Origin: Kagunavirus LF7074P1
Sequence record: OZ035758.1
Length of the DNA: 41,071 nucleotides
Direction: 5' to 3' (one strand)
Positions 2,822 to 35,624 of this stretch are shown here, one piece after another. Made by a program: the position numbers and the translations under genes. Numbering within the stretch: position 1 is the stretch's first letter; each line of letters begins with the position of its first letter. Under the pieces are notes generated by a model that did no database searches, had not been told where the DNA came from, and worked only from the letters and a program-made list of their open reading frames with translations.

Positions 2822-3898
2822 ATGCTATTAACTTTAGCGCCACAGGGTTTATCTATGAGCTTACTTACATCACTAATCAGCCACCAGATATGGCTGCAAC
2901 GAACCGCATCCGGTGAGGTGAAAGACCTCGCGCCGTTCATTAAGGAGATGCGGGACGAAATCAAACGGCAGGTGCTGCTATTCGGCGACGGCGGTCGCAG
3001 CACTGCGCGACTGAATAAACTGTTACGTGACCTTGAAGAAGCACTGACAGGACTTACTGGTGACTGGCAAACAAAGCTGGCAGAAGACCTCAAGGAACTG
3101 GCGGTGTATGAAGCTGAGTGGAACGTAAAGACCCTGACCGCCAACGTAGATGCGGAATTTGTTACGCCCACCGCCGAACAGGTGTGGGCCGCTGCTGAGT
3201 TTCAGCCATTATCATTGAGTGGCAAGCCAGTTGATTTCACTAAACTGATGTCAGGTTGGGGTGAAACGGAAGTAGCACGTCTTGTAACCGGCGTTAAGAT
3301 GGGCTTTGTACAAGGTCAAACAACACGGCAGATTGTTAAGAATGTAGTAGGCGCCGGTGGGCTGGCTGACATCTCTGAGCGTAACGCCGCTACCGTCATC
3401 CGCACCGCGCTGTCTCACGTGTCCAACGAAGCCCGTAACGAGACGTACCGCCAGAACGACGACATCATCGAGAAGTACGAGTGGGTGTCAACGCTGGACA
3501 GCCGTACCAGTACGATTTGCAGAGCCAGAGACGGAATGACGTGGGAAATTGGTAAAGGGCCGATGCCCCCTGCCCATCCGAACTGCCGGTCGTGCACGGC
3601 TCCGGTAATCAGTTCCGAGTTCGACTTCCTCGATAAAGGCGCAAAACGCGCGGCTAAGGGCGCCGAAGGCGGTACTCAGGTAAGTGCGGACACCACCTAT
3701 TACGAGTTCCTGAAACAACAACCGGCATGGTTTCAGGACCAGGCGCTCGGCCCTGTTCGCGGTAAGATTTTCCGTAACAGCGGTATATCGCCGGAAGAGT
3801 TTCGCGTAATATCTGTAGATGGTTTCGGGAACCCGCTGACGCTTAAGCAGATGGCGGAACTCGATAAACGTGTTGCTGATTATCTGAAAGGGGAATAA
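2822..3898 (+). CDS. Head morphogenesis / minor head protein (SPP1 gp7 / Mu F-like by position and size)
   Basis: 358-aa ORF after portal; start uncertain (ATG 2822 has no RBS; ATG 2856 alternative). Confidence 0.55.
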   Translation: MLLTLAPQGLSMSLLTSLISHQIWLQRTASGEVKDLAPFIKEMRDEIKRQVLLFGDGGRSTARLNKLLRDLEEALTGLTGDWQTKLAEDLKELAVYEAEWNVKTLTANVDAEFVTPTAEQVWAAAEFQPLSLSGKPVDFTKLMSGWGETEVARLVTGVKMGFVQGQTTRQIVKNVVGAGGLADISERNAATVIRTALSHVSNEARNETYRQNDDIIEKYEWVSTLDSRTSTICRARDGMTWEIGKGPMPPAHPNCRSCTAPVISSEFDFLDKGAKRAAKGAEGGTQVSADTTYYEFLKQQPAWFQDQALGPVRGKIFRNSGISPEEFRVISVDGFGNPLTLKQMAELDKRVADYLKGE

Positions 3899-4359
3899 TG
3901 ATGGGCTTTTTCAAAGTAACTGACGTACCGTCTCGTCGCGTAGTCCAGTACGCCCGCGTGTCTGGCTCTGGCGAGAACGTGGTGTTTATTGAAGACGAAA
4001 GTGTACTCGGAACACCAGTGGACGATATGCCGTTTGCGGACAAGACCGGTATTGCGCTGCCAGCGGCAGGTATGCTTTATGAGATTCAGTACCTGGCGGA
4101 TGCTGGTGATGTGTATTTCTCCGTACAACCGCAGGACGCTGAACTGGCAGACGGCAGCGCAAATATCGCTGTCGAAGTTAAGGCGGGCAAAGCACCATAT
4201 GCGCTGACCTGGTACAAAGACGGGAAGGAAGTGGTAAACGCCCCGGAAGAGGCTCTGTCTCTGACGGTTAACGCAGTTGGTGAATACTTCGTTAAAGTCA
4301 CTGATGCCGATGGTATAGAGGCCGTAAGTAAAGCAGCGAAGGTTACTAAGCCAGAATAA
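3898..4359 (+). CDS. Hypothetical protein, possibly Ig-like (beta-sandwich) C-terminal region; candidate head decoration protein
   Basis: 153-aa ORF, start overlaps upstream stop (TAATG); C-terminal alternating hydrophobic beta-strand-like pattern; followed by strong terminator. Confidence 0.4.
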   Translation: MMGFFKVTDVPSRRVVQYARVSGSGENVVFIEDESVLGTPVDDMPFADKTGIALPAAGMLYEIQYLADAGDVYFSVQPQDAELADGSANIAVEVKAGKAPYALTWYKDGKEVVNAPEEALSLTVNAVGEYFVKVTDADGIEAVSKAAKVTKPE

Positions 4360-8987: not shown

Positions 8988-9400
8988 TGGGCTACTTTGA
9001 GGACTTAACAAAAGCGTTCGATGTTCCGCTGGTAGCCTTCGGAACCGCCAACGGCATCAAGGTCGCGCTTGAAAACATCTACGCGCCGACGTCAACCGAT
9101 ACGCCATATCTGGCAAGTTACATGTTACTGGCGGATACCGAGCAAGCAGATTTGTTCTTCACGGAACAACGCGCGGGTGTTTATCAGGTCGACATTAACT
9201 ACGCATCGGTGAAAGGTAGCGCGCCAATCAATAAAATGGCAGACTTACTTAACACGGCATTCAAAGCAGGTAAGTCATTTTCTCGTAACGACATCTGCGC
9301 CGAGGTTCAATCGGTTAGCCTGGGGCCGCTGATTGTAGAAAACGGATGGGCCAAACGACCATTGTCAATTAACTTTATTGCATTCACCAAGAGGCTGTGA
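8984..9400 (+). CDS. Putative tail terminator / tail completion protein
   Basis: 138-aa ORF translationally coupled, immediately upstream of major tail protein gene. Confidence 0.4.
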   Translation: MMGYFEDLTKAFDVPLVAFGTANGIKVALENIYAPTSTDTPYLASYMLLADTEQADLFFTEQRAGVYQVDINYASVKGSAPINKMADLLNTAFKAGKSFSRNDICAEVQSVSLGPLIVENGWAKRPLSINFIAFTKRL

Positions 9401-9402
9401 AT

Positions 9403-10569
9403 ATGGCTACAACTCCTTTTAAGGGCGCGAATACTGCGCAATTCTATGTGGCAGAAACTACCCCTGGCGTAACACCGACTAACCCGGTCTGGTCGCCATT
9501 GCGTAACACAGGTGGCGTTCCTGCCATTACCCGCGACACGCTGACCTCCAACGAACTGGACGGCAGCCGTGAAACTACGTCAATCCGCACCGGTAACAAG
9601 CAGGTTAGCGGAGAATACGCTATTGAGCTTAGCTCGAAAAGCCAGGACGACTGGCTGGCGGGTGCTTTAGGCTCTACATGGCAATCCGGTAGTTCTCTGA
9701 CCGGGCTATCAATTACCGTCGCGCCTGCAGGCAAGACCTTTACCCGTGCCGAAGGTAGCTTTATTTCTGACGGCGTTGAAGTGGGCGACCTGATTGCGTT
9801 TACCGACTTAACCGGTGACAACGCAAAACCGTTTATCGTAACTGCAGTAGAGGCGCTGGTAGTGACCGGGGCGGGTATCCAGCATACCCTGACCACAGAG
9901 ACAGTAACTACCGCCGCTAAGACAGGGGATAAACTGGAAACGGGAAGCCAGTGCAAGACGTTCTCTATTCTCACCTGGTACAAAGGCCAGTGCGGCGGGA
10001 CTGACGCGTACACACTAACCAAAGGCGTGGAAGTTTCTGGTTTTACCATCGAACAGGCTGTTAACGCTATGGTAACTGGCAGCTTCCCGTTCATCGGTCG
10101 CAGTCAGGAGATTCTCACCACGCAGCCGTCTGGTTCTGATTTCTCCTCTGTTACGTTTGGTGACGAGCCATTCTCCTCGGTCGATGTTTCTGTGTTCGAC
10201 GGTTCTACGCCGTTGCGTTGCGACAGCCTGACCATCACCAACGACAACAGCGCGTCCGCACAGTTCGAACTCGGCAACACTAACGTAGCGTTTGTGGAGC
10301 GTAGCCGAGCAGCTAACACCTTCTCCATCTCCGGTAAGCTGTACGACATGGCAATGATTCAGAAGTTTATCAACGAGCAGCAGGTGGAGATTAACTCTAT
10401 TCTGGCTGGGGTAAACGGGGCTATGTCTTTCAGTTTGAAACGTGCAGAACTTACGGCGGTTACACCTGAGATTGGAGGACCTGAGTCAATCACTCAGTCT
10501 ATTGAAGGCCAGGCTACTGGCAACCAGTACCAGTCGTCTATTGTTATTCAGCGTATCACATACGCATAA
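9403..10569 (+). CDS. Major tail protein
   Basis: ~389 aa Thr/Ser/Gly-rich; RBS gagg 8 nt before ATG 9403; followed by strong terminator. Confidence 0.6.
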   Translation: MATTPFKGANTAQFYVAETTPGVTPTNPVWSPLRNTGGVPAITRDTLTSNELDGSRETTSIRTGNKQVSGEYAIELSSKSQDDWLAGALGSTWQSGSSLTGLSITVAPAGKTFTRAEGSFISDGVEVGDLIAFTDLTGDNAKPFIVTAVEALVVTGAGIQHTLTTETVTTAAKTGDKLETGSQCKTFSILTWYKGQCGGTDAYTLTKGVEVSGFTIEQAVNAMVTGSFPFIGRSQEILTTQPSGSDFSSVTFGDEPFSSVDVSVFDGSTPLRCDSLTITNDNSASAQFELGNTNVAFVERSRAANTFSISGKLYDMAMIQKFINEQQVEINSILAGVNGAMSFSLKRAELTAVTPEIGGPESITQSIEGQATGNQYQSSIVIQRITYA

Positions 10570-10573
10570 AACT

Positions 10574-10598
10574 AAGGCCCCGAAAGGGGCCTTTTTCT
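10574..10598. terminator. Bidirectional intrinsic terminator between convergent genes
   Basis: aggcccc-gaaa-ggggcct hairpin flanked by A-run upstream and T-run downstream. Confidence 0.75.
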
Positions 10599-11152
10599 TA
10601 CAAACCTAATTTTAAAGCAATGTCTATAACGTTCGATTTAACGTCACCTGGTAGGATGTAGGTGTCGTAATCTTTTACACCGCTAACATCATACAGATAA
10701 CCGCGGCTGTCCCCCTCAAACGTATAGCCTTCTCGGTGCAGGCGAACGATTCTTACATCATGACCCGCGGCGACGATAGGGGCCACTTCGCTGGCGAACC
10801 CGCCGTCGGACACTACAAAAACTTCGTTGCCGTCGGGCAAGTTTTCAGCAAGATACTTACCGAAATAATCACTACCAAGTACCGGTTTAATGAATTGCTC
10901 AGATATAGCAATCATGAACTGACGCCGCGACAAGCCATTAAGGAAGCCTTCTGGCTTTTCTTTCCGCGCTCGGTCGTCGTAGCCGTCGAGAAACTCGTGG
11001 TAAGCACCCGGGCCTAACGCTGCCAGAGCAATATTGAACATTGGATTCTTGAAACTGGTAGTTCCCTTCGCAAAGCCCATCTCTACCAGCGCCATAGCAA
11101 GTGTGTCTTTCCCGCAACCCGCAGGGCCATTAAGAATAATTACCATAGCCAT
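10598..11152 (-). CDS. P-loop kinase, dNMP-kinase-like (could alternatively be a polynucleotide 5'-kinase)
   Basis: 184 aa; Walker A NGPAGCGKDT near N-terminus; overall arrangement reminiscent of T4 gp1-type kinases; start overlaps upstream stop. Confidence 0.6.
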   Translation of the reverse strand: MAMVIILNGPAGCGKDTLAMALVEMGFAKGTTSFKNPMFNIALAALGPGAYHEFLDGYDDRARKEKPEGFLNGLSRRQFMIAISEQFIKPVLGSDYFGKYLAENLPDGNEVFVVSDGGFASEVAPIVAAGHDVRIVRLHREGYTFEGDSRGYLYDVSGVKDYDTYILPGDVKSNVIDIALKLGL

Positions 11153-11637
11153 TACTTATCACTCCCGTGCGATTTTAAGTGTGTAGAGTTCCCGTTACAG
11201 TCGTATTCAGTAACCGCGTGAGTGGTTATACCGAGGCCACGGAAATGCTTTATTACCGCTGGCGAGTCGTCGAATGCGCACAAGATTCTTTCCAGCCCGA
11301 TAGTACGTAGCACCTCTTCCTTAATTACGATGTCTTTTCTGTTGTCGTGTTTGCTGCGCATGATTAACTGATAAAATTCGACGCGGTGGCGCTGCAACCA
11401 CATTCTGGTTTCTTTTTCCGCGTCATCACTACGGCCTGTTAAGATAATAACGGCATAGCGACGATTAAGGGCGTTACACAGTTCGATGTTATCTTTAATG
11501 GGTGCATCGTCTTTGCACGCCATGTTAAATGGTTTCCACGCCCAGGTTTCGCCGTAGTTATCTTTCGGCAGCAGGTGTAAACGATGAGCACCATCTGCCA
11601 ATGTCCCGTCTAAATCGAAAATCACAATATCTTTCAT
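11152..11637 (-). CDS. HAD-family phosphatase resembling the 3'-phosphatase domain of T4 polynucleotide kinase
   Basis: 161 aa; VIFDLDGTLA, ILTGR, DNRKDIVIKEE, AFDDSP blocks line up with the T4 Pnk C-terminal domain as recalled from memory. Confidence 0.65.
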   Translation of the reverse strand: MKDIVIFDLDGTLADGAHRLHLLPKDNYGETWAWKPFNMACKDDAPIKDNIELCNALNRRYAVIILTGRSDDAEKETRMWLQRHRVEFYQLIMRSKHDNRKDIVIKEEVLRTIGLERILCAFDDSPAVIKHFRGLGITTHAVTEYDCNGNSTHLKSHGSDK

Positions 11638-12770
11638 CCAAGCATCTCCGGTGAAATAGTTAAACGTGCGACCTCGCCATATTCGGCGCTATAAGTAATT
11701 ACGTTTGCACTGCGGCCCGACATCCACCCACCGCGGGAGGCATATGCATCTTTAGCCGCGAGAGTGCGGTGTTGCTCAACAATCATGTTACGGCTTTCTA
11801 CAATCTTTTGGTGGTGCAGGTGACCCACGTGGGCGTAGCTGTAAACACTCTCTCCGAACGCTTTGCGGAACTTGGCGATCATAACCGGTTCGATAGCGTC
11901 GAATCGTGCTTTATGCCCATGATGGAAGAACAGCGTCGTTTTGCCGTGTTGCACCATCTTGTAAACATCCGGCGACGTATCGACGAACACACGCGGCTCA
12001 TTGTCGTACAGCGTACTAAACATCTCAGCTAACCAAATCATTCCGCTTTCGTCGTGGTTACCTTGCACGATAAGCAAGCGAACATTTTTATGTTTAACGA
12101 GAGCCATATCAATGACACGGCGGACCATACGAATCATGTAGCGTACAAGTTTCTGATAGCGGGTGTCAGCGTCAAGAACATGGCCACTTGCGGGTGTAAC
12201 GGCATCCAGACTATCGAAGTGCGCGAAGTCACCTAGCAGGTTAATAACTCCTGTTCCCGCATCTGGCGCTTTCTGAAACGCTGCGTCGAACCATCGAGAG
12301 AACAGGTCTTCTGCGATTTTCATATCCCAGTCGTCGCCGCTCTCGTCGGCCCATGCCAGCATACCGAGATGAAAATCAGATACAGTGTAAAGATTGAGTA
12401 GCTTGTCGTCACGTTTGGTGCGCACGGCTTTAACCGGCGCAACGGGGGTAATCTCTGACTTCATGCCCTCAATTACGGCTTTCATAGCCTCTAACTGTTT
12501 CTCTTTATCCGGCTCGGAAATCACCCACGTCATCACCTCTTCGCCATTAGCCTTTACGCAAGCGGATATTCTTTTAGCAGAGAACCCTTCCGCTATGCGT
12601 TTGGATATTACTGGGTCGTTCCCGTGACCTATGCCCTTCTTGGCTAATCGTGCTTTACGGATACGAATTACGCGGTCTGAGATGCCGTATTTACGGGCGA
12701 TGTCTATATTCCTCATCCCGGCGCTCAATTCTTCCTGTAACTGTTCGTCGGTTATTTTCTTCTGGGCCAT
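11634..12770 (-). CDS. Calcineurin-like metallophosphoesterase with N-terminal helix-turn-helix-like domain
   Basis: Five metallophosphoesterase motifs in order (SDFHLG, LLGDFAHFD, VQGNHDES, FHHGH, HVGHLHH); ~100-aa N-terminal region with HTH-like IDIARKYGISDRVIRIRKARL; start ATG 12770 with RBS GAGGA. Confidence 0.6.
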   Translation of the reverse strand: MAQKKITDEQLQEELSAGMRNIDIARKYGISDRVIRIRKARLAKKGIGHGNDPVISKRIAEGFSAKRISACVKANGEEVMTWVISEPDKEKQLEAMKAVIEGMKSEITPVAPVKAVRTKRDDKLLNLYTVSDFHLGMLAWADESGDDWDMKIAEDLFSRWFDAAFQKAPDAGTGVINLLGDFAHFDSLDAVTPASGHVLDADTRYQKLVRYMIRMVRRVIDMALVKHKNVRLLIVQGNHDESGMIWLAEMFSTLYDNEPRVFVDTSPDVYKMVQHGKTTLFFHHGHKARFDAIEPVMIAKFRKAFGESVYSYAHVGHLHHQKIVESRNMIVEQHRTLAAKDAYASRGGWMSGRSANVITYSAEYGEVARLTISPEMLG

Positions 12771-12808
12771 GCTTACTTCCTCGTGTTTAGGATTTGTCCT
12801 ATAGTAGC

Positions 12809-13000
12809 CTACTTCTCTTTCACGTTCGAGTTGCAAGCCCAGATTAAAATAAAGACCCACGGCAGCAGAACCCAACCAAGAAACAGATTAGCCATGAATA
12901 TCGCTAACTTCGCTTTATGGTTACGGAAGTACGCAACCAGGAAAGGCGCGAAATAAGCGAGCAGTGCAAACAGAATTAAGGAAACTGGTAAACTGGACAT
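12809..13000 (-). CDS. Small two-TM membrane protein, superinfection-immunity (Imm)-like
   Basis: 63 aa; YFAPFLVAYFRNH...NLFLGWVLLPWVFILIWA resembles the Imm_superinfect family consensus; first gene after promoter P3; ATG 13000 has RBS aagggg (alternative ATG 13015). Confidence 0.5.
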   Translation of the reverse strand: MSSLPVSLILFALLAYFAPFLVAYFRNHKAKLAIFMANLFLGWVLLPWVFILIWACNSNVKEK

Positions 13001-13030
13001 TTTAAACCCCTTCATTGTTGGTGTAAGTGA

Positions 13031-13059
13031 ATAGTACCCTATTATATTGGGGTGTGCAA
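13031..13059 (-). promoter_or_regulatory. Sigma70-like promoter P3 (TTGCAC-17-TACTAT) driving the minus-strand cassette
   Basis: Minus strand reads TTGCACaccccaatataatagggTACTATtca, near-identical to promoter P1 at 35039. Confidence 0.6.
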
Positions 13060-13167
13060 GTAATGTGATAGAATAAGTTTGCGCCTAGTGTCGCACACGA
13101 AAAGCGGGTGGTTCCCGTCTGGCGCATTTATCGTTAACCTGTAACCTCTTAACCAAAGGATTAAAGA

Positions 13168-13584
13168 ATGAAACTTTCTGATTTTTATTTCGAAGAGAAA
13201 GCACTGGTAGGCAAGAAGATGCCCATTCTGCTGCCAAACGGCGAAGACTCCGGTGAATGGCTTAACGTTGTAAGTCCCGATGCGGATGTCGCCGTTAAAG
13301 CGGGGCGTGCTTTCATTATTGCGTACCGTCGCGGGTTGGCGCGTTTCGAAGAACTGGAAAAAGCCGCCAAAGAATCCGGCGACTATACTGAATATAACCT
13401 GGCTATTAACGAACTGGCGGAAGACCTCAACCGGCAACTCGCGGCAGAAGTCGTAAACGGCTGGAGCTTTGATGAGCCTTTCTCTAAAGAAGCATTTAAC
13501 AAATTGCTGGACCAGTTCAAGGCATTAGGCACACAGGTAGCAGCGTTCCATAACGCTGAGCGCAAAGCATTACAGGAAAAGTAG
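13168..13584 (+). CDS. Tail assembly chaperone (gpG-like)
   Basis: 138-aa acidic ORF with RBS aagga, immediately upstream of tape measure gene. Confidence 0.5.
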   Translation: MKLSDFYFEEKALVGKKMPILLPNGEDSGEWLNVVSPDADVAVKAGRAFIIAYRRGLARFEELEKAAKESGDYTEYNLAINELAEDLNRQLAAEVVNGWSFDEPFSKEAFNKLLDQFKALGTQVAAFHNAERKALQEK

Positions 13585-33955: not shown

Positions 33956-34080
33956 TTCTTTTTCTCCGCGCGTTCTAAGGCTTCCTGCATACGACGCATT
34001 GCGCGGTTCATCTTTACCGGTGCGAAGAAATCAGCGCCGTGTTTCTGGCGGCGCAACTGTGGAACTATTAACTTCGTCAT
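33952..34080 (-). CDS. Small basic hypothetical protein (42 aa), not in ORF track
   Basis: RBS AGGA 8 nt upstream of ATG; stop overlaps primase ATG (ATGA). Confidence 0.3.
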   Translation of the reverse strand: MTKLIVPQLRRQKHGADFFAPVKMNRAMRRMQEALERAEKKK

Positions 34081-34149
34081 TGTATAATCCTTGTGCTTAC
34101 TTTGATGATTTGTGCTTCGGCCCCGACGTTCTAGCGTTGGGGTTTCTTT

Positions 34150-34440
34150 TTACCGTTTAGCCAACTCTTCCAGCAAATTTTTATACTCTTCAAAATATTC
34201 CTCGACCAAATCATCGCCGAAATAGAAGTCGATATACTCGAGATTATCTCTTACGTTAAGCGACGCAGACATGGTGCTTAGTTGGCGTAAGCTAATTAGC
34301 TTCATTTCTGTTTCTACACAGAAAGGCCGGTAGGTATCGAGGTGGCAAGAGATGTTGAAGCATAAAGCGAACTCTCCCGCCACGGAGTGAACCATATACA
34401 CTTCGTTTTCTGCTTTATTGTGGAAAATTACACCTTTCAT
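34150..34440 (-). CDS. Hypothetical protein
   Basis: 96-aa acidic ORF coupled to upstream HTH gene (ATGA). Confidence 0.45.
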   Translation of the reverse strand: MKGVIFHNKAENEVYMVHSVAGEFALCFNISCHLDTYRPFCVETEMKLISLRQLSTMSASLNVRDNLEYIDFYFGDDLVEEYFEEYKNLLEELAKR

Positions 34441-34619
34441 TTCACATTCTCCTTAATCCATTCTTCAACTTTATTACGGTCAAATGTACCTGGTAAACGG
34501 CGACCCATAACCTTAATACAACAATCAGGGAATTTACCACTGCGCAACCAGTTATTAATTGTCTGACGTGTTACCCCAATACGCTCGGCTACTTCATTCT
34601 GGGTCATGTAATGTTGCAT
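34437..34619 (-). CDS. Small HTH DNA-binding protein (AlpA/excisionase-like fold suggested)
   Basis: 60 aa from ATG 34619 (RBS AGGAG 8 nt upstream); MTQNEVAERIGVTRQTINNWLRSGKFP. Confidence 0.5.
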   Translation of the reverse strand: MQHYMTQNEVAERIGVTRQTINNWLRSGKFPDCCIKVMGRRLPGTFDRNKVEEWIKENVK

Positions 34620-34650
34620 TTTTATATCTCCTGTTTGTTTGGTGAAGCTG

Positions 34651-34679
34651 AGTATAGGATAGCGGGAATGTAAAAGCAA
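34651..34679 (-). promoter_or_regulatory. Candidate sigma70 promoter (TTGCTT-17-TATACT) for the HTH/primase operon
   Basis: Read on the minus strand upstream of the 34619 start. Confidence 0.4.
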
Positions 34680-34716
34680 CCAATCCCTGCAATATTTAAT
34701 CTTTACAAAAAAGTTA

Positions 34717-34746
34717 TTGAAAGTTCTTGACACATGTTTGTATAAT
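34717..34746 (+). promoter_or_regulatory. Candidate rightward sigma70 promoter (TTGAAA-18-TATAAT)
   Basis: Consensus -10 TATAAT at 34741-34746; reads into a non-coding region containing a long hairpin. Confidence 0.4.
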
Positions 34747-34773
34747 GGTTTTGGGACTTGTATATATTACGGA

Positions 34774-34805
34774 GTTGACGAACCCTCCCTGAGGGATTCG
34801 TCAAC
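34774..34805 (+). other. Long perfect inverted repeat / stem-loop (GTTGACGAACCCTC-CCT-GAGGGATTCGTCAAC)
   Basis: ~14-bp perfect stem read directly from sequence; about 30 nt downstream of the candidate promoter at 34717. Confidence 0.7.
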
Positions 34806-34946
34806 CCCTCCCAGACAGCTGAGATGCTTGTTTTAGGGTTTAAGGATAAGTGTATCTAAATCTCATTTAAAGAAGTAACCCACTGAAATATCTACTGTTT
34901 CTTAATGTGCCGTAGATTCGCAACCGTAAAAATGTAACGATTATTG

Positions 34947-34972
34947 GGCAGGCTTAAGGCCTGCCCTTTAGT
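34947..34972 (+). terminator. Weak terminator-like hairpin
   Basis: gggcaggc-ttaag-gcctgccc stem followed by ttt. Confidence 0.35.
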
Positions 34973-35038
34973 TACCAAGTAATAAGAATAAAGGCACAAC
35001 CTTCCCCGAAGAATCACAACGGCAACGTAACTAATCTC

Positions 35039-35067
35039 TTGCACACCCCAACATAATAGGATACTAT
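35039..35067 (+). promoter_or_regulatory. Sigma70-like promoter P1 (TTGCAC-17-TACTAT), rightward early promoter
   Basis: TTGCACaccccaacataataggaTACTAT; conserved leader ...aaacgagacagaggag... to ATG 35102. Confidence 0.65.
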
Positions 35068-35101
35068 TCACTTATCGAAACGAGACAGAGGAGTGAGGGT
35101 T

Positions 35102-35284
35102 ATGTTTAAGAATGGTCAGTTGGTGAAAACAAAGCGCAGCCGGCAACACGTAATAGTTACCAAAGACGAGGATGAATATGGTGTTGTCGCCGTATTTAGC
35201 CTTATACGGAGGAAACATGGTTATGTTCGTCACGATAATTTAGAACTCATCGGCAACAATTTTAAATTCAAAGGGGCGAAGTGA
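35102..35284 (+). CDS. Hypothetical early protein (60 aa)
   Basis: ATG 8 nt after GAGGAG. Confidence 0.45.
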   Translation: MFKNGQLVKTKRSRQHVIVTKDEDEYGVVAVFSLIRRKHGYVRHDNLELIGNNFKFKGAK

Positions 35285-35469
35285 TGGGAGAATTAATTTA
35301 CGACGTATACGTCGACGGGGTCATAACAGAGACGACAAGTAATAAAGATTACGCAATAAAGCGGTATGTGTATTATGCCGCAGTGGTAGGAAGGATGGTA
35401 GAAGTGCGGGAGCAAACGGCATCGAATCATGATGCTCGTGCCGACGACTCTGAGGGAGGTTGCCGTTAA
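35284..35469 (+). CDS. Hypothetical protein
   Basis: ATG overlapping upstream TGA; RBS aagggg. Confidence 0.4.
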   Translation: MGELIYDVYVDGVITETTSNKDYAIKRYVYYAAVVGRMVEVREQTASNHDARADDSEGGCR

Positions 35470-35624
35470 TGCGAATCCGTATAACTGACCGCAGGCTTAT
35501 AGATTTCGGTATCTCGGTAGGTGATGTTTTTCTGGCGTTCAGCAGCAACCATTATGGTTTTATGATTGAGTACAAAGGGTCGTTATTGTTCGTGTATCGG
35601 GATGAATGTGAGGTTCTGGTATGA
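35469..35624 (+). CDS. Small hypothetical protein (51 aa), not in ORF track
   Basis: TAATG coupling to the upstream gene. Confidence 0.3.
   Translation: MRIRITDRRLIDFGISVGDVFLAFSSNHYGFMIEYKGSLLFVYRDECEVLV

What the first reader, a model, noticed from the sequence alone, without database searches (positions are those of the whole stretch)
10598..13059. Opposite-strand accessory cassette inside the tail module: Imm-like protein, HTH-metallophosphoesterase, Pnk-like 3'-phosphatase and P-loop kinase
Four translationally coupled minus-strand genes with their own promoter (P3) are wedged between the major tail gene and the tail chaperones, interrupting an otherwise co-directional structural operon. 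The HAD protein aligns block by block with the T4 polynucleotide kinase 3'-phosphatase domain. The neighbouring P-loop kinase and a five-motif binuclear metallophosphoesterase with an extra N-terminal HTH-like domain together supply the activities of a nucleic-acid end-healing set (5'-kinase, 3'-phosphatase, 2',3'-cyclic phosphodiesterase), but as separate polypeptides and with no ligase in the cassette. Hypotheses are a split RNA/tRNA repair system countering host anticodon nucleases, or a nucleotide salvage or DNA modification pathway. The Imm-like membrane protein points to an exclusion or counter-defence island.
Basis: partly seen in the sequence, partly recalled or inferred. Interest (0 to 1): 0.75.

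Follow-up and report, generated by a model that had tools for sequence, protein, structure and literature searches.

The report
Phage nucleotide-salvage genes beside immunity gene
This is an ordinary, already annotated accessory operon of a Kagunavirus coliphage (a small membrane "immunity" protein, a nuclease-like metallophosphoesterase, a 3'-phosphatase and a dNMP kinase) that most likely helps supply DNA building blocks, not a split RNA-repair system.

Summary
The domain calls are correct: Imm_superinfect, HTH plus five-motif metallophosphoesterase (MPE), a HAD phosphatase of the T4 Pnkp type, and a P-loop kinase.

The favoured reading, a split RNA/tRNA end-healing set, is not supported.
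- The kinase is a T4 gp1-type dNMP kinase. It is 49% identical to phage Rao1 R1DNK, a purified enzyme that phosphorylates dNMPs.
- Rao1 carries the same MPE-HAD-kinase trio in the same order.
- The MPE fold is closest to Mre11/SbcD/PolD-DP1 nucleases, not to lambda-phosphatase or CthPnkp-type end healers.
- The genome has no ligase.

The cassette is not one unit. Imm plus MPE is the constant part of this slot in Guernseyvirinae. HAD plus kinase is a mobile pair, found fused in two proteins, and only about half of Kagunaviruses carry it.

Best reading: an independently transcribed accessory operon for DNA-precursor salvage plus superinfection exclusion. The roles of the HAD and MPE are untested. 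The gene set is already annotated and has been discussed for T1-like phages, so interest is low.

The parts
10574..10593 (.). Bidirectional intrinsic-terminator hairpin (AAGGCCCC-GAAA-GGGGCCTT) between the convergent tail-tube gene and the kinase gene
   Evidence: Found on both strands, 8-bp stem with 6 G-C pairs, followed by T-runs; sequence read
10598..11152 (-). dNMP kinase (184 aa), T4 gp1 / phage DNK family; P-loop GPAGCGKD with Lys15
11152..11637 (-). Stand-alone HAD (DxDxT) phosphatase of the Pnkp 3'-phosphatase type (161 aa). Its start overlaps the MPE stop (ATGA); its stop overlaps the kinase start (TAATG)
   Evidence: Pfam HAD_PNKP 3.6e-19; phrog_415 9e-66. PDB: Pnkp1 4xrp 4.9e-6, T4 Pnk 4.4e-3. 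Aligned to T4 Pnkp, D8/D10/R19/T67/R69/D102/K106/D123/D124 match D165/D167/R176/S211/R213/D254/K258/D277/D278. Roles of D165, D167, S211, K258 and D278 are taken from PMC3592404
11634..12770 (-). HTH-metallophosphoesterase (378 aa): N-terminal three-helix HTH, a beta-hairpin and linker helix, then a binuclear MPE core with all five motifs. The ORF can be extended to TTG 12875, but homologues start at MAQKK
12809..13000 (-). Imm_superinfect-family small membrane protein (63 aa from ATG 13000; alternative ATG 13015 gives 68 aa), with two hydrophobic segments flanking RNHKAK
   Evidence: Pfam PF14373 9.3e-13, above cut-off; phrog_1039 4.7e-23; hydropathy profile. The relative fTaEco01 annotates the 63-aa form
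13031..13069 (-). Candidate sigma-70 promoter(s) of the cassette: TTGCAC-17-TACTAT (13059-13031) and the overlapping ATCACA-17-TATAAT (13069-13041)
   Evidence: Consensus scan. Hexamer positions are conserved between Kagunavirus and Jerseyvirus intergenic regions. No transcript data, so this is inferred

Best explanation
The locus is an independently transcribed accessory operon in a permissive slot of the Guernseyvirinae tail module.

Fixed part of the slot: a small Imm-family inner-membrane protein, presumed to exclude superinfecting phage, and an HTH-metallophosphoesterase. The MPE is a core phage gene of unproven function and is most likely a Mn2+-dependent DNA nuclease or phosphodiesterase.

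Variable part in this phage: a mobile two-gene unit, a Pnkp-type HAD 3'-phosphatase followed by a T4 gp1-type dNMP kinase.

The kinase converts 5'-dNMPs, released when DNA is broken down during infection, into dNDPs. Host Ndk then makes dNTPs for phage replication.

The HAD is inferred to remove 3'-phosphates from DNA ends, oligonucleotides or nucleotides, so that breakdown products can be digested further or used. The MPE is inferred to be the nuclease, or one of the nucleases, feeding this pathway.

Shown: the gene identities, the conserved HAD-then-kinase pairing and fusion, and dNMP kinase activity of 49-50% identical homologues. Inferred: the substrates of the HAD and MPE, a link to host DNA degradation, expression timing, and Imm function.
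For: Kinase family:
- Full-length profile match to T4 gp1, against a P-loop-only match to T4 Pnk.

Experimental anchor (bioRxiv 10.1101/2024.12.20.629578):
- Rao1 R1DNK is 49% identical and the same length, 184 aa. The purified enzyme phosphorylates dAMP, dGMP, dCMP and dTMP.
- The K15A mutant is inactive. Deleting dnk lowers dATP during infection.
- KarlJaspers DNK, 50% identical, also works in their assay.
- Rao1 gp56-gp57-gp58 is the same MPE-HAD-kinase trio in the same order: 42%, 51% and 49% identity.

Conserved pairing:
- The trio is contiguous in Webervirus, Pantoea phage AAS23-like contigs and Pseudomonas podophage MR4.
- 65 of 80 IMG/VR kinase loci have the HAD upstream on the same strand.
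- HAD_PNKP-kinase fusion proteins exist: P0346 and P0360.

Nucleotide-metabolism context:
- A related stand-alone HAD overlaps nrdB in a T4-like phage.
- In MR4 the trio follows the exonuclease and endonuclease genes.

Literature:
- The same genes next to the 'DNA repair exonuclease' in Drexlerviridae are proposed to enhance nucleotide supply (PMC13164509).
- T1 and TLS degrade host DNA and reuse the nucleotides; the nuclease is unidentified (PMC11447400).

MPE: all metal ligands are invariant, and the closest folds are SbcD, DP1 and Mre11.
Against: - No activity has been measured for the HAD or the MPE of any member.
- An Mre11-type exonuclease yields 3'-OH products, so the need for a 3'-phosphatase in salvage is not obvious.
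- The HAD active site is that of a polynucleotide 3'-phosphatase, not a dedicated nucleotidase.
- The MPE subfamily is ambiguous. Generic phosphodiesterases (MJ0936, YfcE, Rv0805, Vps29) score almost as well as the nucleases.
- The MPE often occurs without HAD and kinase: Jerseyvirus, Dhillonvirus, about half of Kagunaviruses, and many T1-like phages. Its role need not be tied to theirs.
- Host DNA degradation by Kagunaviruses has not been reported in anything I could find.
- Deleting dnk in Rao1 had no fitness cost in the laboratory.
Confidence: 0.5

Rival explanations
1. Split Pnkp-like nucleic-acid end-healing set. The HAD removes 3'-phosphate or 2',3'-cyclic phosphate, the P-loop kinase phosphorylates 5'-OH ends, and the MPE trims ends. 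A host or other ligase then seals them, repairing tRNA or DNA cut by host defence nucleases.
For: - The HAD keeps the complete T4 Pnkp phosphatase active site and hits Pfam HAD_PNKP.
- HAD and kinase form a conserved ordered pair and are sometimes fused, phosphatase then kinase.
- In MR4-like podophage contigs an ATP-dependent DNA ligase gene directly follows, and often overlaps, the kinase gene: 15 of 80 loci, 6 of them with the full MPE-HAD-kinase-ligase row.
Against: - The kinase is a gp1-type dNMP kinase by sequence, fold and experiment on 49-50% identical homologues.
- No ligase is present in this genome or in its annotated near-relative.
- Kinase next to ligase is also the T7 arrangement (genes 1.3 and 1.7), where the kinase is a nucleotide kinase (my own knowledge).
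- About half of Kagunaviruses do without the pair.
Confidence: 0.1
2. Counter-defence or exclusion island. The slot collects genes that act against host immunity or rival phages. For example, the MPE might degrade (cyclic) nucleotide signals, the HAD might reshape nucleotide pools to blunt nucleotide-sensing defences, and Imm might block superinfection.
For: - The slot has its own promoter and terminator, and its content differs between close relatives: HAD+kinase, small ORFs, Rha/ANT protein, HNH.
- An Imm-family gene is present.
- Phage dNMP phosphatases (T5 Dmp) are proven anti-Kongming factors that co-occur with DNKs.
Against: - The MPE is a persistent core gene: 508 of 522 Drexlerviridae, and every Guernseyvirinae locus inspected here. 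It also carries a DNA-binding HTH, which is unlike typical anti-defence morons.
- Rao1 carries the same HAD next to its DNK yet is sensitive to Kongming, so the HAD is not an effective Dmp analogue.
- T5 Dmp belongs to a different fold family (my own knowledge).
- No PADLOC hits.
Confidence: 0.12
3. No joint pathway. The genes merely share a permissive insertion site and transcript. The MPE works in phage DNA replication, recombination or maturation. The kinase boosts dNTP supply. The HAD cleans 3'-blocked DNA ends, like the stand-alone DNA 3'-phosphatase Tpp1 of yeast. Imm acts at the membrane.
For: - The MPE occurs alone in many lineages, and 13 kb from the HAD...kinase pair in T1-like NorthRox.
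- The HAD occurs without the kinase in Drulisvirus.
- The kinase occurs without HAD or MPE in several podophage contigs.
- Imm accompanies the MPE only in Guernseyvirinae.
Against: - HAD then kinase, in the same order on the same strand, in 65 of 80 loci, plus fusion proteins, argues for a functional link at least between these two.
- The contiguous trio recurs in at least four unrelated phage backgrounds.
Confidence: 0.25

Closest known systems
Phage Rao1 gp56-gp57-gp58 and the Drexlerviridae 'DNA repair exonuclease - PNK - dNMP kinase' block
   Same: Same three genes in the same order and orientation: 42%, 51% and 49% identity. The kinase has the same length and the same catalytic Lys15. The block has been noted and ascribed to nucleotide supply. 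R1DNK is biochemically a dNMP kinase.
   Different: In T1-like phages the block sits just upstream of the lysis cassette. Here it lies inverted inside the tail module, preceded by an Imm gene.
T4 gp1 deoxynucleoside monophosphate kinase (PDB 1DEK)
   Different: Only 19-23% identity. The protein is 184 aa against 241 aa, lacking the large insertion of gp1. Relatives phosphorylate all four dNMPs including dAMP and dCMP, whereas T4 gp1 does not act on those two (record note).
T4 polynucleotide kinase-phosphatase (PseT) and Pnkp1 of the bacterial Pnkp1-Rnl-Hen1 system
   Same: The HAD domain aligns over its whole length with every catalytic residue conserved. Pfam family HAD_PNKP.
   Different: No fused Pnk-type kinase domain. 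The neighbouring kinase belongs to a different P-loop kinase family. There is no RNA ligase partner.
Clostridium thermocellum Pnkp (kinase - metallophosphoesterase - ligase)
   Same: It combines a P-loop kinase with a binuclear metallophosphoesterase (PMC3675462, abstract seen).
Mre11/SbcD nucleases and the PolD DP1 proofreading exonuclease
   Same: Best structural neighbours of the MPE core. All five motifs with their metal ligands are present. GenBank annotators' HHpred also pointed to DP1.
   Different: No Rad50/SbcC partner gene and no capping domain. It has an N-terminal HTH instead, and an invariant insertion TPASGHVLDADTR (residues 192-204) that the model does not resolve. Scores are barely above those of generic phosphodiesterases.
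T4 Imm (superinfection immunity protein)
   Same: Pfam Imm_superinfect domain above the cut-off. A small protein with two hydrophobic segments.
   Different: Function untested. The family is widespread, and most members are uncharacterised.

Membership tests
T4 gp1-type phage dNMP kinase (DNK) | Full-length homology to gp1/DNK beyond the P-loop | tested here: met
   hhalign: 172 columns, P 93%, E 3.6e-7. phrog_139 2.3e-43. 49-50% identity to R1DNK and KarlJaspers DNK
T4 gp1-type phage dNMP kinase (DNK) | gp1-like fold | tested here: met
T4 gp1-type phage dNMP kinase (DNK) | ATP-dependent phosphorylation of 5'-dNMPs | not testable with these tools
   Shown for the homologue R1DNK in bioRxiv 10.1101/2024.12.20.629578, not for this protein
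Pnkp end-healing enzymes (T4 PseT type) | DxDxT HAD 3'-phosphatase with the Pnkp catalytic residue set | tested here: met
   All nine aligned residues are conserved. Pfam HAD_PNKP 3.6e-19
Pnkp end-healing enzymes (T4 PseT type) | Pnk-type 5'-OH polynucleotide kinase module | tested here: not met
Pnkp end-healing enzymes (T4 PseT type) | Partner ligase (Rnl or a ligase domain) to seal healed ends | tested here: not met
   No ligase in the annotated near-relative. No ORF in the window matches the T4 Rnl1 or MR4 DNA ligase seeds, and every ORF of 250 aa or more corresponds in size and position to a gene annotated in the relative, none a ligase. Rnl2 and RtcB seeds were not tested
Binuclear metallophosphoesterase (calcineurin-like) superfamily | Five motifs: DxH, GD, GNH(D/E), H, GHxH | tested here: met
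   D132-x-H134, G180-D181, G237-N238-H239-D240, H284-G-H286 and G316-H317-x-H319 are invariant in 30 sequences. Pfam Metallophos hits are below the cut-off, but the fold is confirmed
Mre11/SbcD nuclease subfamily | Capping domain and a Rad50/SbcC ATPase partner | tested here: not met
   The model ends with the MPE core. No SbcC/Rad50-like gene is annotated in the relative
Mre11/SbcD nuclease subfamily | DNA exo/endonuclease activity | not testable with these tools
Lambda-phosphatase / CthPnkp-type 2',3'-phosphoesterase | Lambda-phosphatase-like fold and motifs (GDxVDRG, GNHE) | tested here: not met
Imm_superinfect (T4 Imm) family | Pfam PF14373 domain above the gathering score; small two-TM protein | tested here: met
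   48.3 bits against a cut-off of 27.9; hydropathy profile
Imm_superinfect (T4 Imm) family | Blocks DNA entry of superinfecting phage | not testable with these tools
   No experimental data found for Guernseyvirinae

The most novel reading that the evidence does not exclude
The conserved, sometimes fused, pair of a Pnkp-type 3'-phosphatase and a gp1-type dNMP kinase may form an uncharacterised pathway, often joined by the HTH-metallophosphoesterase. One version: the pathway turns 3'-phosphorylated breakdown products, such as 3',5'-bisphosphates or 3'-P oligonucleotides, into dNDPs. Another version: the HAD is a DNA 3'-end repair enzyme that counters a host nuclease leaving 3'-phosphates. Either way, the pathway would be a widespread phage function hidden under the label 'polynucleotide kinase'.
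Probability: 0.12. Interest if true: 0.55.

Novelty: already known. Interest (0 to 1): 0.2.

Why it matters
There is little new here. The same four genes are annotated in dozens of Kagunavirus records, and the MPE-'PNK'-dNMP kinase block has been described and given a nucleotide-supply role in T1-like phages.

Three points are still useful:
1. The widespread label 'polynucleotide kinase' on these 160-aa proteins is misleading. They are phosphatase-only, and the adjacent kinase is a dNMP kinase.
2. Kinases of this family are the trigger of the Kongming defence system. This phage is therefore predicted to be Kongming-sensitive, while the roughly half of Kagunaviruses that lack the pair would escape. 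That may explain the patchy distribution.
3. The HTH-metallophosphoesterase is found in about 2,000 phage genomes. Its function is untested, and it is a candidate for the unidentified host-DNA-degrading nuclease of T1-like phages.

Tried and rejected
- Sequence and profile searches against PDB sequences were uninformative for the kinase (P-loop hits only) and for the MPE (HTH hits only).
- Two of the three large protein searches returned only near-identical Guernseyvirinae MPEs. A third, seeded with distant homologues, gave the diversity needed for structure prediction.
- NCBIfam gave nothing above any cut-off. PADLOC gave no hits.
- Literature searches for Kagunavirus or Guernseyvirinae together with phosphoesterase or metallophosphoesterase found nothing. 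Other hits were genome announcements that repeat the annotations.
- I considered the HAD as an anti-Kongming dAMP phosphatase analogous to T5 Dmp. I rejected this as the main role because Rao1 carries the same HAD and is still sensitive.
- I considered a DNA hypermodification pathway. I rejected it because no hydroxymethylase, transferase or other modification gene beyond a C5 methyltransferase is annotated.
- I considered that the kinase-ligase adjacency in podophages supports end sealing. I judged it weak, because T7 places its nucleotide kinase near its ligase too (my own knowledge).
- The 41-aa ORF at 13002-13127, annotated in one relative, overlaps the conserved promoter region and is probably spurious.
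Full report
WHAT THE WINDOW IS. The window is a Kagunavirus (Guernseyvirinae) genome. Over the 2.9-kb stretch 10400-13300 it is 99.6% identical to Kagunavirus LF7074P3 and 93-95% identical to annotated coliphages such as fTaEco01 and K1G. In those records the four genes are already named metallophosphoesterase or DNA repair exonuclease, polynucleotide kinase/phosphatase, deoxynucleotide kinase and superinfection immunity protein.

THE OBSERVATION. Four minus-strand ORFs lie between the tail-tube gene (9397-10569) and the tail assembly chaperones (from 13168). The structural block around them is otherwise all plus-strand.

The kinase is at 10598-11152, the HAD at 11152-11637, the MPE at 11634-12770 and Imm at 12809-13000. 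MPE/HAD overlap as ATGA and HAD/kinase as TAATG.

The TTG start at 12875 for the MPE is an over-call. PHROG and nearly all homologues begin at MAQKK, giving 376-378 aa. Imm and the MPE are therefore separated by 38 nt that contain an RBS, and they are not coupled by overlap.

A strong bidirectional terminator (10574-10593) separates the convergent tail-tube and kinase genes.

Upstream of Imm there are two overlapping promoter-like sites. ATCACA-17-TATAAT matches 10 of 12 consensus positions. TTGCAC-17-TACTAT keeps its hexamer positions in Jerseyvirus. The count of promoter-like sites is not above the shuffled expectation, so the promoter remains an inference from position and conservation.

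IMM. Pfam Imm_superinfect scores 48.3 bits against a cut-off of 27.9. Two hydrophobic segments flank a basic loop.

HAD. Pfam HAD_PNKP gives 3.6e-19. The nearest solved relatives are Pnkp1 and T4 Pnk.

Aligned to T4 Pnkp, D8, D10, R19, T67, R69, D102, K106, D123 and D124 correspond to D165, D167, R176, S211, R213, D254, K258, D277 and D278. The catalytic roles of D165, D167, S211, K258 and D278 are described in PMC3592404.

The protein has no kinase domain, so the common annotation 'polynucleotide kinase' is a misnomer.

KINASE.
- PHROG dNMP kinase, 2.3e-43.
- A profile of 61 diverse homologues aligns with T4 gp1 over 172 columns (P 93%) but with T4 Pnk only over the 23-residue P-loop.

An experimental anchor exists. 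The Kongming study (bioRxiv 10.1101/2024.12.20.629578) purified R1DNK of phage Rao1. It showed phosphorylation of dAMP, dGMP, dCMP and dTMP, loss of function with K15A, and lower dATP in a dnk deletion. DNKs of KarlJaspers and a Webervirus also worked in their in-vivo assay.

The window's kinase is 49% identical to R1DNK, has the same 184-aa length and has Lys15 in the same place. It is 50% identical to the KarlJaspers enzyme.

MPE. The five metallophosphoesterase motifs and their metal ligands are invariant across 30 homologues down to 37% identity.

The AF2 model (pLDDT 78) shows an N-terminal three-helix HTH, a beta-hairpin, a linker helix and the MPE core. Three conserved loops are unresolved, including the invariant TPASGHVLDADTR segment.

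Superfamily membership is therefore firm. A nuclease-like subfamily is favoured, and the HTH supports that, but it is not proven. A CthPnkp-type end-healing phosphoesterase is unlikely.

NO LIGASE. The carefully annotated near-relative has none. No window ORF matches the T4 Rnl1 or an ATP-dependent DNA ligase seed. Every ORF of 250 aa or more corresponds in size and position to a gene annotated in the relative, none of them a ligase.

THE CASSETTE IS NOT ONE UNIT.
- Jerseyvirus, the sister genus, has in the same slot an Imm homologue (unannotated in f18SE), the MPE, a 76-aa ORF and a Rha/ANT protein. It has no HAD or kinase.
- About 115 Kagunavirus-type records share the tail-tube gene, but only 52-56 carry the HAD-kinase DNA. 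The others, for example fPoEco01 and Bas70, have an Imm-like gene, the MPE and small ORFs.
- The MPE alone is found in 2,049 phage records, including Dhillonvirus and most Drexlerviridae. It is reported as a persistent gene in 508 of 522 Drexlerviridae (PMC13164509).

HAD AND KINASE BEHAVE AS A PAIR. Of 80 IMG/VR loci recovered with the kinase profile, 65 have the HAD upstream on the same strand. These were the 80 best by similarity, so the sample is biased. Twenty-eight of the 80 (16 Kagunavirus and 12 others) have the contiguous MPE-HAD-kinase row.

Two cluster representatives are HAD_PNKP-kinase fusions.

The contiguous trio recurs in Webervirus, in podophage MR4 and in T1-like Rao1. In Rao1 it is the very locus whose kinase was characterised.

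MECHANISM. The firm part is the kinase: dNMP to dNDP, feeding dNTP synthesis from DNA breakdown products. This fits three things:
- the rise of dAMP, dADP and dATP on Rao1 infection;
- the known reuse of host nucleotides by T1-like phages, whose nuclease is unidentified;
- the interpretation already published for the Drexlerviridae block.

Context also points to nucleotide metabolism. A stand-alone HAD of this type is translationally coupled to nrdB in a T4-like phage. In MR4 the trio follows the exonuclease and endonuclease genes.

The roles I assign to the HAD (removing 3'-phosphates from ends, oligonucleotides or nucleotides) and to the MPE (a nuclease supplying dNMPs) are inferences. The HAD's role is the weakest link, because Mre11-type digestion leaves 3'-OH.

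RIVALS. A split Pnkp-like repair set is disfavoured by the kinase's identity, the MPE's fold class and the absence of a ligase. Three facts keep it alive at low probability: the intact Pnkp-type active site, the HAD-kinase fusions, and the kinase-ligase adjacency in podophages (15 of 80 loci).

A counter-defence role is possible for this variable slot. It fits poorly with the MPE being a core gene, and with Rao1 being Kongming-sensitive despite carrying the HAD.

A 'no joint pathway' reading, with independent functions sharing a permissive site, is a serious alternative for the MPE and Imm but less so for the HAD-kinase pair.

NOVELTY AND VERDICT. The domain calls are right.

The gene set is already annotated, its T1-like counterpart has been discussed in print, and the kinase family has been characterised biochemically. 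I rate it already known and of low interest.

Two residual questions are modest but real: what the stand-alone Pnkp-type phosphatase does next to a dNMP kinase, and what the very widespread HTH-metallophosphoesterase does.

One testable by-product follows. This phage should trigger Kongming through its kinase, while Kagunaviruses lacking the pair should not.

Noticed in passing
L006 (Salmonella phage f18SE, NC_028698) about 3760-3950, between the tail chaperone and MPE genes: An unannotated ORF encodes a clear Imm homologue (MSVFIGIIAFIYFIPFLVALLRNHKAKLGIFVCNLLLGWILLPWVGALIWACNSNVNGK). Imm plus MPE is therefore the conserved core of this slot across Guernseyvirinae, although the RefSeq record shows an empty intergenic region.
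   Followed up: partly
window 13075-13130 (intergenic, between the cassette promoter and the tail chaperone gene): A stretch that is nearly invariant between Kagunavirus and Jerseyvirus (CCAGACGGGAACCACCCGCTTTTC...GTGCGAC..TAG.CGC) contains two small hairpins. The tail-tube gene ends at a strong terminator, so the downstream tail genes need their own promoter or an antitermination signal here. No sigma-70-like site was found on the plus strand.
   Followed up: partly
P0346 (403 aa) and P0360 (461 aa), representatives from the kinase search: Natural fusion proteins with an N-terminal HAD_PNKP phosphatase and a C-terminal gp1-type dNMP kinase. The order is the same as the separate genes here. 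Their genomic context could not be retrieved.
   Followed up: partly
L065, L077, L078, L081-L084, L087, L089-L092, L094-L096 (IMG/VR podophage-like contigs) and L005 (Pseudomonas phage MR4): The gp1-type kinase gene is directly followed, and often overlapped, by an ATP-dependent DNA ligase gene. Some of these loci have the MPE and HAD upstream and some do not.
   Followed up: partly
L097 (T4-like phage vB_Eco_SAP) 3498-3974: A stand-alone HAD_PNKP-type phosphatase, 40% identical to the window's HAD, overlaps the stop of nrdB. It is additional to the phage's full-length Pnk.
   Followed up: no
L003 5122-5289 (W011D); L002 5131-5343; L006 5128-5358; L016 5702-5932: Where HAD and kinase are absent, the MPE gene is followed by a small ORF. 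In Drexlerviridae this ORF is the DUF7244/SH3 protein (Pfam 1.6e-28). The 66-76-aa Guernseyvirinae and Dhillonvirus ORFs have no Pfam match, and their relation to it is unknown.
   Followed up: partly
window 10598-11637 versus 11634-12770: The HAD-kinase DNA is 100% identical to Kagunavirus LF7074P3 but only 92.6% identical to LF7074P1. The MPE protein is 100% identical and the tail-tube DNA 99.9% identical to LF7074P1. This suggests recent exchange of the HAD-kinase segment between co-circulating phages.
   Followed up: no
window 13002-13127 (minus strand): A 41-aa ORF, annotated as a hypothetical protein in fTaEco01, overlaps the conserved promoter and hairpin region. It is probably not a gene.
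   Followed up: no
window 34000-35500: GC content drops to 0.41 where GC skew changes sign. In the relative's annotation this is the divergent early region of many small ORFs.
   Followed up: no
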